From positions 93,551,368-93,615,367 of the forward strand of contig JASCQW010000072.1 in the NCBI GenBank assembly GCA_030264375.1: a stretch of DNA of 64,000 bases, written 5' to 3'. The notes under the pieces are model-generated. The model searched no databases. It was not told the origin of the DNA and worked only from the letters and a program-made list of their open reading frames with translations. The position numbers were made by a program, and so were the translations under genes. This document shows positions 5,933 to 57,833 of this stretch, one piece after another (position 1 is the stretch's first letter; every line of letters starts with the position of its first letter). The stretch comes from Carcharhinus longimanus. Lineage: Eukaryota.

Positions 5933-6123
5933 ATAAAAGCAAATTGCTGTGGATGCTGGAATCTGAAACTAGAAGAGAAAATGCTGGAAAATCTCAGCAG
6001 GTCTGGAAGCATCTGTAAGGAGAGAAAAGAGCTGACGTTGTCAGAGATGGCCCTTTGTCAAAGCTTTGTCAAAGGATCACCTGGACTCAAAGCATCAGTT
6101 TTTTTCTCTCCTTCCGGATGCTG
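5933..6123. mobile_element. Penelope-like element fragment with inverted repeat
   Basis: gatgctggaatctgaaac...gcatctgtaaggagagaaaagagctgacg pairs with catcagttttttctctccttccggatgc; decayed hammerhead-like core in the middle. Confidence 0.65.
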
Positions 6124-9435: not shown

Positions 9436-9864
9436 TGGAAATACTTCATTCTTTAAGGGCCCAGGATTCCTTGAATGTTGACAGCACAGCCAAAATCTGT
9501 TTCAGGGTTACTGATGAATTACGTCTCAGAAGAAGTATACCACTGAAGCAATGGTAAAACTGTGCCAACAAAAATACTAATTTTACAGTTTTTATCCTCA
9601 CTTCTCATTATTTCTTCATTGCAATGTTAATGTAAGCCTATTTGTGACACACTAATAACTAAACTTTCCCTTATTTGGGAAGAATCCAATTTATCCTTTT
9701 TTCATTGATTATAGGTGAGTGTCATCCCACCTTTGCAGCTCTTGTTTCATAAGTCATATGCTAAGTGAGAGCTCTGTTTCTTATTTCCTTAGGTCCCAGA
9801 ACTTTACATTTCATTGCAAACAAATGCCACATCCTTCAGCTTTAGGTTACCTATATATAAACAG

Positions 9865-11014: not shown

Positions 11015-11296
11015 TCAAGTTTTTATTAGTCACAAGTAGGCTTACATTAACACTGCAGTGAAGCTACTGTGAAAATCCCTTAGTCGCCACATTCCGGCAC
11101 CCATTCAGGTACCCTGAGGGAGGATTTAGCATGACCAATGCACCAAACTAGCATGTCTTTGGGACTGTGGGAGGAAACTGGAGCACCCAGAAGAAACCCA
11201 CGCAAACATGGGGAGAACGTGCAGACTCTGCACAAAAAGTGATCCAAGCTGGGAATCGAACCTGTGAGGCAGCAGTTCTAATCACTGTGCCACTGT
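11015..11296 (-). mobile_element. V-SINE, tail type A
   Basis: ttattagtcacaagtaggcttacattaacactgc...gggaatcgaacc...cactgtgccac. Confidence 0.9.
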
Positions 11297-11944
11297 AACT
11301 CAACCTCTCTCCACAAAAAAATTGGGTAACAAAGAAGCTATTGGGAGAACATTGGTTTCAAAAAAGCAATGAATGCTTAATTAAATTAGAACATGCATCT
11401 GATAGGTTGAGGACGATTCAATCTGGCTTGAGCAATAAAAGGTTGTATAGACAGCAGAAGAAATATGTACAACAAGGTCTGACCAGATTACAAATGCGGC
11501 TGCTCTGCTCAACTTCCTGGCTCCAACTGTGAGTCTGTCCTTGATCTGTAATTCGTACCGGCCTGTTGACTGGCTCAGCTTCCTGCTGGGATGATCCAAA
11601 GTATCCTCACTCATCAAGAAAGGATCACGCTACTACAAGACAGAATATCGGCCGGAATTCTCCCAAAAAAATTTCTAAGTGTCGAATTTGGGTGAAAACT
11701 GGAGTAATTCATATTAGTTTTTTTCAGTGGGAGCTCAGAGAAGAATCTCCCACGCTGTGCACTCCAGAGGCCACTTGCGTATATATATCATTAAAAGTCA
11801 ATGGGCTGCAGGCCTCTATTCCTACTGGAGAGGTCGGCAGCATAGCATTGAGTGGGCCACTGCCCATGCACTGATCTGTCAGCGCCAAGATCGGTGCATG
11901 TGCAGTAGCCCCGCGCTGCCAGCCTCCCGATTTCTGGCCAACTC

Positions 11945-12321
11945 AGTGACTGTAAGAAGTCTCACAACATCAGGTTAAAGTCCAACAGGTTTATTTGTAG
12001 CAAACGCCACTAGCTTTTGGAATTGGCCATTCCTTCATCAGGTGGGTGGGAGTTCTGAATTCTGAGTTCTGAACTCCCACCCACCTGACGAAGNNNNNNN
12101 NNNNNNNNNNNNNNNNNNNNNNNNNNNNNNNNNNNNNNNNNNNNNNNNNNNNNNNNNNNNNNNNNNNNNNNNNNNNNNNNNNNNNNNNNNNNNCTGACGA
12201 AGGAACAGCCAGTTCTGAAAGCTAGTGGCGTTTGCTACAAATAACCTGCTGGACTTTAACCTGATGTTGTGAGACTTCTTACTGTGTTTACCCCAGTCCA
12301 GTGCTGGCATTTCCACATCAT
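11945..12321. mobile_element. Penelope-like element, head-to-head inverted repeat with hammerhead motifs
   Basis: ~100-bp inverted arms; right arm ctgacgaaggaacagccagttctgaaagctagtgg...ccagtccagtgctggcatttccacatcat; flanked by aactc on both sides. Confidence 0.85.
12194..12228 (+). ncRNA. Minimal type I hammerhead ribozyme motif (PLE-associated)
   Basis: CUGACGA-A-(G)GAAC-agcca-GUUC(U)-GAAA-GC-UA-GUGG; the CCAC strand of helix I lies at 12081-12084 across an apparently spurious gap. Confidence 0.6.
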
Positions 12322-13261
12322 AACTCGATCGCTGGCCAGCCCTGAGACTCCACATCACCGGCTCCCTGCCCTCCCCACAGCCGGATCGCTGGATCCCCAA
12401 TCATTCCCAGGCCAGGCACACCCTTCCCCACCTCCCCCGCCGCCCAACCCTCTAGGAAGCCCCGATTGCCCAGCTATCACTCCAGCAGGGTTGGACCGCT
12501 AATTTCCCATTAGTGGGGAGTAAGTGTAATTCCAGCTGGAGCGAACTGCTCTGCTGGGGGGTTGAGGGGAAGCAGTGGGGAGGTGGGGAGATGCTAGAGG
12601 GCCTGGAGATTAAAGTCCCAGGTCCACTCATTGCATTTAACTTATAATAAATGGCCTTGGTGCCTCCCCGCTGATTTCCAGTGTGGAGCCGACATCTCCA
12701 GAAATCCGGCACTAGGCAATGCTATCAGAGCTGGAACGCATGCACAAATCCTGCGAATTGGCCTGTGCAAGAATCTCCCGGTTCACCGTACTAAAAAATT
12801 AGTGCAGTGGGAGAGGAGAATCACCCCCATTGTACATGTTCAATAAGCAGAAAACAATACAGAAATCAAAACTTGTTTCACCCACCCAGGTAGCAGCCAT
12901 TTGTACAATGTTGCTTTATTAATAATGAGACTGTCTATCTCGCCTTTAAAATCTGTTCAGCATATGTAAGATTCAGCTTTTGCCAATGCAATTAACAACT
13001 AGCTACCACATCTATTTTCACTTTCTTATATTTTGCTTGAACAAGCTTTTTGCAATCATGCCAACTCTTTCCCTAACAGGAATGAGTTGAGGCAAATCCA
13101 TCGCAGTGTTTAAGAGTTAACTGCAGAGATCTGGGCTAATTTCATTCTTTCAAAGCCAACAGTAGTCGTGAAGCCATAATAAAGCTCTTTTTTCCACAGA
13201 GTGGCAAGGAGGAATTGATCCTATGCCCGGTCTTGGCGTTGCTATTATATTAATATACTAA

Positions 13262-14084: not shown

Positions 14085-14371
14085 TTGATTTATTAACGTC
14101 ACAAGTAGGCTTACATTAACACTGCAATGAAGTTACTATGAAAATCCCCTAGTCGCCACGCTCCAGCGCCTGTTTGGGCACACTAAGGGAGAATTTAGCA
14201 CGGCCAATGGGTCTAACCAGCATGTCTTTCGGACTGCGGGAGGAAACTGGAGCACCCGGAGGAAACCCACGCAGAGACTGGGAGAACTTGCAGAGTCCAC
14301 GCAGACAGTGACCCAGGCCGGGACTCGAATTGCTGCTATGAAGCAGCAGTGCTGATCACTGTGCCACCGTG
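14085..14371 (-). mobile_element. V-SINE, tail type A
   Basis: Near full-length reverse copy. Confidence 0.9.
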
Positions 14372-14947
14372 ACATATGTCACATTTTGCCTCAACCAAAA
14401 TTGCATTGTCAGAGATAAAGATTCGTCGTGTCTCATCCAATGAAAGTCCTTTGAAGTCAGCCCATTTGTATAAATATCAGCTGCTTTTGACTCCAAAGCT
14501 CCTTCCCTCAAATAAAATTTCCTGAGCTAACTGTTAACAATCCCTTTGCTTTATTGCCCGTCACTTTCTATGCCACAGCGAACAGATACCTGAGCCCGAA
14601 ACTTGTTATCATTACTGTCACTTATCTTCTTACACAAACACTGTGAGCATCAGAAAGCAAGCCATTCTTCCCCAGTACAAACTTCAAAGCCACTCTGTTT
14701 ATACTGGAGAGTCTCAGTGCTCCTTGATCAAAGAATTAGATCCTTTGCCTCTCCAAAATTCATTACAGACGATGTATATTTCAGACTATGTTCATTTGTC
14801 ATGTTGCACTCTGTGGTGCTTCAATAAAGTTACACGTAGTGAGAGTTACACATAGTCCGAGAGGTTTTACTTGGCTATTGGCCCCTCAATGTCCATTGGC
14901 TGAAAGGCCTTACACAGTGACCTTTCTGTTTTATATTATTTATGGAT

Positions 14948-15879: not shown

Positions 15880-16321
15880 GTATGTCTCGGTGATCTGTGG
15901 GTACGCACAGAAACCGCAGCTCAGTGGGGTCGGGGGGGGGGGCGCGGAGAGTGGGGTGGAGATCGAAATGGGCCGGGGGTGTTGGTGGCTGAGGCCAGTG
16001 TCACGGGATGGGGGGGATGGTCTGTGAGGTAGCTGGACAACAATCAAGCTGGCCAGTGATCAGGAGGTCAGCAATGCTGTGCTACTGTGATGTGCCGATC
16101 TTTGCTTTGATAAACCAGGGCATGTGCAGTGGCCTGCTCAGCGCTATGCTGTCAACCTCTTCGGCAGGAATAGGCCCAGCCCACAGCTTTTTAATGAGAG
16201 TCAAGCTGGGGCTCTCTGTGAGTATAGGAGATTCAATTTGAAAATCCCTTTGAGAAAAACCAGTGTGATTTACTCCAGTTTTTACGCAAATTGAGCTTTT
16301 TTTTTGGGGAAAATCCCACCC
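15880..16321. mobile_element. Partial Harbinger-like non-autonomous element
   Basis: Reverse-complement similarity to 11650-11940; ends gggaaaatcccaccc. Confidence 0.55.
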
Positions 16322-26516: not shown

Positions 26517-26943
26517 CATAGAATAGAATAGAATAGAATCATAGAATCCCTTCAGTGCAGAAGGAGGCCATTCGGCCCCATCAAGAGATAGGGCCTAGGT
26601 GGGATTGTCAACAATCCCACCTAGGCCCTATCTCTGTAACCCTACGTGTTTACCCTGCTAATTCCCCAGACATGAAGGGTGGAATTTATCTATCCCGTGG
26701 ACCATGCAGAAGTCCTTTGACTTTGGGTGTGAATTTCTGGACTTGGGGCGAGTGTGGCAAGAAAATCCACCCCTCAAAGTCAATTTAGCATGACCAATCA
26801 ACCTAACCCAGACATCATTGGAGTGTGGGAGGAAATCCAAGCAGACAGAAGGAGAATTTACAAACTACACACAGGTAGGAGGCCAGAATTAAACCCATGT
26901 CCCTGGTGCTGTGAGGCAGGAGTGCTAACTGCTGTGCCACTGT
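26517..26943 (-). mobile_element. HE1 V-SINE with MITE insertion (~26677-26773)
   Basis: (atagaa)n tail, core and head; gggtggaattt...gaaaatccaccc inserted at gacatgaaggg|tcaatttagc. Confidence 0.85.
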
Positions 26944-29339: not shown

Positions 29340-29757
29340 TTTCTTCCTTCATGGGATGTGGGAGTCACCAAAGTTTATTGCATATTCCTAGTTGCCCTTA
29401 AACTGAGTCATTTGCTAGGCCACTTTCAAAGCCATGTAAGAGCCACATATGGACCAGAGTAGCAGGTTTCCTGATAATCATATGGGTTTTTCATGGTCAT
29501 TGTTAAACTTTTAATTCCAGATTTTTTAAATTGAATTCAAATTCAATAAAATTTGAATTTAATAAAATTCAAATGTAGGACATCAGCCTGGATTACTAGT
29601 CCACTGACAATACCNNNNNNNNNNNNNNNNNNNNNNNNNNNNNNNNNNNNNNNNNNNNNNNNNNNNNNNNNNNNNNNNNNNNNNNNNNNNNNNNNNNNNN
29701 NNNNNNNNNNNNNNGGATTACTAGTCCACTGACAATACCACTGCACCACTGCCTCTC
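29340..29757 (-). mobile_element. SINE family B
   Basis: catgggatgtggg...ggattactagtccactgacaataccactgcaccactgcctc. Confidence 0.8.
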
Positions 29758-57397: not shown

Positions 57398-57833
57398 ACA
57401 CAGTGGTAGCACTCACCTCTGAGTTCAGAATTGTGGGATCAAGCCCAACTTCAGGGCTTGAGTATACACAATTTAGACTAACACTTGAGCGCAGAGCTAA
57501 AGGAATGCTGCACTGCCAGGCTTGTGGTGTCTGCTTGATGAGGCATTAAAATGCGTATTTNNNNNNNNNNNNNNNNNNNNNNNNNNNNNNNNNNNNNNNN
57601 NNNNNNNNNNNNNNNNNNNNNNNNNNNNNNNNNNNNNNNNNNNNNNNNNNNNTTAGTCCAACTAAAACCTGGTGTTGTCAGACTTTTTACTGTGTTTACG
57701 CCAGTCCAACGCCGGCATACCCACATCATTCCTCCATTACAACAGTGACCAAATGTCAAACATACTTGCTGGGAAGCATTTTGGAACATCCTGAACTTGG
57801 GAAACGGCTCTACATAAATGAACATTTGCTCTC
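57398..57833 (+). mobile_element. SacSINE1/DeuSINE-like element interrupted by a gap and a Penelope end (57653-57729)
   Basis: Head gtggtagcactcacctctgagttcagaattgtgggatcaagccc, ggaatgctgcactg; L2-type tail cattacaacagtgac...gcattttggaacatcctga...tacataaatg. Confidence 0.7.

What the first reader, a model, noticed from the sequence alone, without database searches (positions are those of the whole stretch)
11945..12321. Back-to-back minimal hammerhead ribozymes in a Penelope hairpin
Seen: two ~100-bp inverted arms, each with a hammerhead-like core. Plus arm: CCAC-CUGACGA-A-GGAAC(agcca)GUUCU-GAAA-GC-UA-GUGG. Minus arm: CCAC-CUGAUGA-A-GGAAU(ggcca)AUUCC-AAAA-GCUA-GUGG, where the G of GAAA is lost. 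Helix III is only the palindrome AGCU with a CUA cleavage triplet, and helix I is CCAC/GUGG. Established: Penelope-like elements carry minimal type I hammerheads that cleave as dimers through palindromic helix III. Inference: the plus-strand copy may still cleave a transcript crossing it, and the arms form a dsRNA hairpin on either strand.
Basis: partly seen in the sequence, partly recalled or inferred. Interest (0 to 1): 0.7.

Follow-up and report, generated by a model that had tools for sequence, protein, structure and literature searches.

The report
Decayed shark Penelope hairpin stump
This is a short mirror-image remnant of a common shark jumping gene; it carries two damaged copies of a known self-cutting RNA motif that would most likely stay silent here, so it is an ordinary repeat.

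Summary
The motifs are real, but the locus is ordinary. Window 11952-12321 is two 5'-truncated ends (pLTRs) of a shark Penelope-like retrotransposon, joined head to head. Only one arm has the 39-nt tail, and a decayed 12-bp target duplication flanks the pair. Longer copies continue into a GIY-YIG-type endonuclease, and homologues carry reverse transcriptase. The hammerhead fits the published minimal type I motif, and helix II covaries across subfamilies. The genome holds 4,944 exact core matches (control 0), and 31 of 70 consecutive ones have an upstream inverted arm. The plus hammerhead spans a 100-N gap whose flanks overlap by 9 nt; contigs did not close it. Cleavage here is unlikely. The two cores lie on opposite strands, so they cannot dimerise. 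The antisense arm is predicted to bury either core (about 55 kcal/mol). Both cores are hit at the same CpG (G12A on minus, G10.1·U11.1 on plus). Best mechanism (inferred): twin priming from both nicked target strands on uncleaved RNA. The scan has noted this architecture before in at least 19 genomes.

The parts
11816..11951 (.). Left part of an older GC-rich interspersed repeat that the element landed in
   Evidence: 40 best genome hits at 82-87% identity; it continues into the right flank in empty paralogs
11940..11951 (+). Target-site duplication, left copy (12 bp, 8 of 12 identical to the right copy)
   Evidence: in paralogs L100, L102 and L111 the two flanks overlap by exactly 12 nt; sequence score alone is weak
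11952..12058 (-). Inverted 5'-truncated pLTR arm ending at the family's 'short' 3' end (no tail)
   Evidence: many family contigs end at 11952/11953
12007..12045 (-). Minimal hammerhead motif, G12->A at 12018 (CpG decay), predicted dead
12059..12071 (.). Locus-specific head-to-head junction with a short duplicated, templated-looking insert (GAGTTCTGAA at 14-nt period)
   Evidence: sequence; best other genome hit 89%, and junctions differ between loci
12072..12093 (+). 5' part of the direct pLTR arm, including helix I 5' strand (12081-12084) and CTGACGAAG
12094..12193 (.). Assembly gap (100 N); flanks overlap by 9 nt, likely no real sequence inside
   Evidence: not bridged
12194..12228 (+). Minimal hammerhead core; G10.1·U11.1 at 12216; AGCU helix III 12220-12223; predicted cut after 12224
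12229..12282 (+). Rest of the direct pLTR up to the short end
12283..12321 (+). 39-nt one-sided PLE tail; ends in the first two bases of the element's ATG
   Evidence: in longer copies CCACATC|ATG opens the ORF
12322..12333 (+). Target-site duplication, right copy

Best explanation
This is one old insertion of an endonuclease-bearing Penelope-like retrotransposon, reduced to two 5'-truncated pLTR ends joined head to head, likely made when both nicked target strands primed reverse transcription on uncleaved element RNA, and its two hammerhead motifs are predicted to be inactive passengers. Shown: family identity, head-to-head layout, one-sided tail, recurrent 3' ends, target duplications around such units, unique junctions, neutral-looking CpG decay. 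Inferred: a dimeric RT-endonuclease made a staggered cut about 12 bp wide; one strand started copying at the tail end (at the ATG) and the other 39 nt upstream; the two short cDNAs were then joined by end-joining with a small templated insert. Predicted: any read-through RNA folds into a duplex of about 110 bp that buries the ribozyme.
For: Longer copies run upstream into a C-terminal endonuclease with a CxxC linker, whose homologues carry RT with DKGG and YIDD motifs. The pLTR tail leads directly into the ORF start, by regex in 11 of 19 N-terminus hits inspected (1 of the 20 loci left out). 31 of 70 consecutive core matches have an upstream inverted arm, against 3 of 70 downstream. Target duplications scoring >=7 were found in 12 of 28 scored rows against 0.13% of 756 mismatched flank pairs (8 rows with unclear ends dropped; the window itself scored 4). 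The empty site shows a 12-nt overlap in 3 of 23 host-repeat loci. Junctions differ at every locus shown. 21 of 37 partner arms extend 5' of C3 and only 1 starts at the cut site. Forcing the hammerhead costs 55-57 kcal/mol. G12 is lost in 6 of 29 copies, like other CpG guanines (p=0.78), and the non-CpG core is not significantly conserved (8/289 vs 66/1440, p=0.20). The anole PLE protein cuts and extends both strands from two start sites that bound the tail, is predicted to be a dimer, and uses uncleaved RNA (PMC11167929).
Against: The gap is not closed, so hidden sequence is possible; 8 of 70 loci have another same-strand copy within 1.5 kb. The window's own target duplication is only 8 of 12 identical, and one host paralog (L118) gave a different overlap. 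The sequence cannot separate twin priming from fold-back self-priming. Energies are equilibrium predictions without protein, and the anole hammerhead cleaves only with its protein. Clade assignment rests on a motif, not a tree.
Confidence: 0.8

Rival explanations
1. Same insertion, but the inverted arm arose by fold-back self-priming of one cDNA or of an antisense template, not by priming from both target strands.
For: Proposed for rotifer Penelope from palindromes at inverted junctions (PMC3846280, passages). The centre here is quasi-palindromic. Partner arms mostly show the same helix II subfamily as the main arm (by eye).
Against: Junctions are not clean palindromes and often carry inserts. 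The two arms commonly end at two different fixed points (short vs tail), matching the two RT start sites measured in vitro.
Confidence: 0.3
2. The plus hammerhead is still active on read-through transcripts, as a trans dimer with other element RNAs, with protein help, or with a tandem copy hidden in the gap.
For: All catalytic core bases of the plus copy are intact; the isolated 39-mer folds helices I and II (-8.3 kcal/mol). Thousands of genomic copies could supply partners. The gap is open.
Against: The antisense arm sequesters it whether or not the gap is real. G10.1·U11.1 is decayed. Minimal hammerheads are inactive as monomers and weak as dimers (PMC4209133). No sign of selection on cores. 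No reads at the cut site were found in anole RNA-seq.
Confidence: 0.06
3. The hairpin is itself a non-autonomous element (retrozyme- or MITE-like) that is copied as a unit.
For: Short, ORF-less and flanked by a target duplication; many similar units exist.
Against: No other locus shares this junction (best 89%), and the centres differ among the loci shown. Retrozymes are same-strand tandem repeats. The same inverted arm caps longer ORF-bearing fragments (7 of 29).
Confidence: 0.05
4. The hairpin is an assembly artefact or two independent neighbouring insertions.
For: There is a gap inside the element, and the window's target duplication is degenerate.
Against: The junction lies in called sequence. 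The arms differ at 9 of 93 sites. Gap-free paralogs show the same layout. The flanks rejoin with a 12-nt overlap in empty paralogs.
Confidence: 0.03

Closest known systems
Minimal type I hammerheads (min-HHR) of metazoan PLE pLTRs (Cervera & De la Pena 2014, PMC4209133; parts 1-2 of 4 read)
   Same: Short helix I, extra nucleotide between A9 and 10.1, palindromic 15.2-16.2 with no loop 3, location in the pLTR; the paper also reports pairs on opposite strands about 100-700 bp apart.
   Different: Helix II is 5 bp (7-8 bp in the Schistosoma examples). Both copies here are damaged. Sharks are not named in the parts read; supplements were not seen.
EN+ PLE insertions with an inverted 5'-truncated copy, one-sided 30-40 bp tail and TSD (Craig et al. 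2021, PMC8557442; Arkhipova et al. 2013, PMC3846280; passages read)
   Same: Head-to-head inverted pLTR, tail on one end only, target duplication of about 10 bp, assembly trouble at such loci.
   Different: No ORF is left; both arms are truncated to about 110-150 nt.
Anolis Poseidon PAc (Frangieh et al. 2024, PMC11167929; parts 1-2 of 4 read)
   Same: Two 3' end points that bound the tail; uncleaved RNA as template; the outer end lies roughly 90-100 nt past the hammerhead cut site.
   Different: In PAc the hammerhead overlaps the start codon and RT starts inside the ORF. Here the hammerhead lies 95 nt upstream of the ATG and the tail ends in the ATG. This family has a CxxC linker (Neptune/Nematis type).
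Non-LTR retrozymes (bioRxiv 10.64898/2026.07.22.740005; part 1 of 5 and passages read)
   Same: Short, non-coding, derived from PLE pLTRs, type I hammerhead.
   Different: Retrozymes are same-strand tandem repeats able to form dimers; this is an inverted pair.

Membership tests
PLE minimal type I hammerhead | Core boxes CUGANGA and GAAA...UH | tested here: met
   Met on the plus arm and in the family; the minus arm fails it through G12A
PLE minimal type I hammerhead | Extra nucleotide between 9 and 10.1; palindromic 15.2-16.2 without loop 3 | tested here: met
   A bulge and AGCU on both arms
PLE minimal type I hammerhead | G10.1-C11.1 pair | tested here: not met
   The plus arm has G·U at 12216. 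The family majority (22 of 29) and the minus arm keep G-C, so this is decay of this copy.
PLE minimal type I hammerhead | Helix II supported by covariation | tested here: met
   10.3:11.3 is Watson-Crick in 35 of 50 distinct variants (shuffle mean 23.6) and 10.4:11.4 in 35 of 50 (23.3); 10.5:11.5 is not supported (27 vs 26.5). Shuffles ignore relatedness.
PLE minimal type I hammerhead | Helix I closes the motif | tested here: inconclusive
   Intact on minus; on plus it depends on the unclosed gap. In the family, pairs 2.1-2.3 are mostly Watson-Crick and 2.4 mostly U·G, with no covariation seen.
PLE minimal type I hammerhead | Self-cleavage as a dimer | not testable with these tools
   No assay; folding predicts sequestration
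Rfam hammerhead families | Covariance-model match | tested here: not met
   No hammerhead hit in the window at E<=1 or in contiguous paralog L002 at E<=10; expected for a motif lacking helix III (inference)
EN+ Penelope-like elements | Single ORF with RT (DKG motif) and C-terminal GIY-YIG endonuclease in the parent family | tested here: met
   RVT_1 above cut-off in P0005 and P0009. GIY-YIG was read by eye from motifs; Pfam gave no hit for that domain. No intact full-length copy was recovered from this assembly.
EN+ Penelope-like elements | pLTR adjoining both the ORF end and the ORF start; optional 30-40 bp tail; inverted 5'-truncated copy | tested here: met
Neptune/Nematis clade | Zn-finger-like CxxC linker between RT and EN | tested here: met
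   C-x4-C-x2-C in L125, L038, P0005 and P0009
Neptune/Nematis clade | RT phylogeny | not tested
   No tree built
Non-LTR retrozyme | Same-strand tandem units, each with a hammerhead | tested here: not met
   The two motifs are on opposite strands; gap content unseen

The most novel reading that the evidence does not exclude
The thousands of head-to-head stumps in this shark are in vivo records of twin priming by a dimeric Penelope RT-endonuclease. Each nicked strand copies uncleaved RNA from one of two fixed starts (the ORF's own ATG and 39 nt upstream, set relative to the hammerhead), and the inverted arm automatically silences the ribozyme in every such insertion.
Probability: 0.5. Interest if true: 0.35.

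Novelty: new member of a known kind. Interest (0 to 1): 0.12.

Why it matters
This locus alone matters little: it is one decayed copy among thousands. As a class, such stumps give a large natural data set for how Penelope-like elements build their inverted ends, which is still unsettled, and a caution that motif searches count many hammerheads that cannot fold in context.

Tried and rejected
Gap closure: contigs of five DNA-type runs over two calls did not cover 12062-12193 at 97% or bridge the gap; a hole in contigs proves nothing. Contigs from several runs enter the element by 25-30 letters from each flank, short of the tool's 31-letter bar, so sharing of the insertion among individuals is only hinted. 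No RNA holder listed. Rfam found no hammerhead. Host gene: Pfam found nothing in the 150 longest of 343 non-repeat frames, so intronic or intergenic status and transcription are unknown. An RVT_1 genome search returned other retroelements and was not used. Four regions fetched for a full-length copy were largely N. Pile-up of 5' ends at the hammerhead cut site: not seen, 1 of 37. A search for Penelope + shark + Neptune gave one unrelated paper, so I did not find this family described in that one search. The paper on dimeric cleavage of small PLE hammerheads (Lunse and colleagues, recalled) was not held and was not read. That G10.1·U11.1 lowers activity is recalled, not taken from a call.

Full report
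Observation. The two cores exist as written. The minus core (12045-12007) is contiguous and lacks G12. The plus core is split by 100 N at 12094-12193: the left flank ends and the right flank begins with the same 9 letters. One other 100-N gap in the window has a 25-nt overlap and the other three have 0-2, so overlap placeholders occur in this assembly. Paralog L002 carries the same 39 nt unbroken. Contigs from public runs did not bridge the gap, so closure is likely but not shown. The arms match over 93 nt at 90.3%.

Family. The right arm is a high-copy repeat (3,616 candidates, 40 scored). A core pattern gives 4,944 exact matches against 0 for the reversed control. Longer copies extend upstream into the end of an ORF with a CxxC linker and GIY-YIG-type motifs. 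Its named homologues are shark proteins (up to 86% identity to Mustelus asterias entries), several with RT. P0005 and P0009 pass the RVT_1 cut-off and show DKGG and YIDD. Downstream, the pLTR tail runs into ATG and the ORF N-terminus. The sequence is therefore the pLTR of an endonuclease-bearing Penelope-like element, of Neptune/Nematis type by the linker (PMC8557442, passages); no tree was built.

Anatomy of this insertion. The inverted arm starts at 11952, at a family-wide end point. The direct arm continues 39 nt further, to 12321, stopping inside the start codon. This is the one-sided tail of the literature. The element sits in an older repeat. In 3 of 23 paralogs of that repeat the two flanks join with a 12-nt overlap, marking 11940-11951 and 12322-12333 as a decayed duplication (8 of 12 identical); one paralog gave another register and the rest did not align on both sides of the junction. 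Among head-to-head loci, 12 of 28 scored rows have a clear duplication against 0.13% in mismatched pairs; 8 rows with unclear ends were dropped and the window row scored low. So the two arms are one event.

How common. Of the first 70 core matches taken on contig C1 (one listed match between them was not fetched), 31 have an inverted arm within 1.5 kb upstream (19 within 150 nt), 3 have one downstream, and 8 have another same-strand copy. Among the best BLAST relatives, 12 of 29 short and 7 of 29 longer copies have the inverted arm. The central junction of this locus has no close twin and centres differ among the loci shown, so the mirror half is built at each insertion. Opposite-strand pairs of minimal hammerheads were already reported in 2014 (PMC4209133).

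The ribozyme. At family level the motif behaves like a real structure: two helix II pairs switch between A-U and G-C across subfamilies, beyond shuffles, while the third variable pair is unsupported. After insertion, copies decay like neutral DNA. G12 is lost in 6 of 29 copies and C11.1 in 7 of 29, similar to CpGs outside the motif. Non-CpG core sites are only slightly and not significantly more conserved. Both window arms are about 6% from their subfamily majority (7 of 127 and 6 of 94 sites) and are hit at the same CpG from opposite strands. G12 is described as a putative general base (PMC6257768, passages).

Could it cut here? A minimal hammerhead needs a same-sense partner and is weak even then. 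The two copies here are on opposite strands. On either strand the antisense arm precedes the sense core and forms a duplex of about -190 kcal/mol. Enforcing the hammerhead costs 55 (plus) or 57 (minus) kcal/mol, and leaving the gap open does not free the core. The only other family fragment in the window is 45 kb away, with its hammerhead region in a gap. No host exon was found. Activity is therefore predicted to be nil; protein assistance, as in anole, is the caveat.

Mechanism. Both arms extend 5' of the cut site, as do 21 of 37 partner arms, and only 1 of 37 starts at it, so templates were mostly uncleaved, as in vitro. The anole enzyme cuts and extends both strands from two start sites that bound the tail. 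Head-to-head arms with different fixed 3' ends, a target duplication and a variable centre with inserts are what priming from both strands followed by end-joining would leave. This is inference; fold-back self-priming is not excluded.

Verdict. Real motif, known class, known layout, decayed copy. Earlier notes of this scan describe the same thing in at least 19 genomes; they are unchecked and were not used as support. Supplements of the cited papers were not consulted and may list shark elements.

Noticed in passing
window 57653-57729: A second fragment of the same pLTR (short end plus tail) on the plus strand, with its hammerhead region inside a 92-N gap.
   Followed up: partly
window 12019-12033 (minus arm helix II): The 10.5:11.5 pair has changed on both sides (C-G to U-A) in this single decayed copy; chance or hairpin-templated correction.
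   Followed up: no
window 12202-12215 and 12303-12314: In the plus arm folded alone, helices I and II have near-zero probability. By eye the helix II region is complementary to part of the tail, which could be an inhibitory alternative fold; not tested across the family.
   Followed up: partly
window 29615-29714: A 100-N gap whose flanks overlap by 25 nt, an apparent placeholder gap.
   Followed up: no
window 11685-11899 and 16090-16292: Two inverted copies of an older GC-rich interspersed repeat with an internal palindrome; the Penelope stump landed in the left one.
   Followed up: partly
window 11029-11299, 14098-14373, 9602-9666: Several copies of a SINE-like repeat (shark SINE label recalled, not tested).
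   Followed up: no
window 6008-6122 and 26582-26637: Other short hairpins that give weak, sub-threshold microRNA-family hits; likely small inverted repeats.
   Followed up: no
proteins P0007, P0011, P0015, P0021-P0023: Annotated shark host-gene isoforms contain pieces of this element's endonuclease, either exonisation or annotation artefact.
   Followed up: no
loci L079, L083, L087, L088, L066, L140: Six of 37 inverted partner arms have their 5' end at alignment position 44-45 and six at -51; may be hot spots or only alignment breaks between subfamilies.
   Followed up: no
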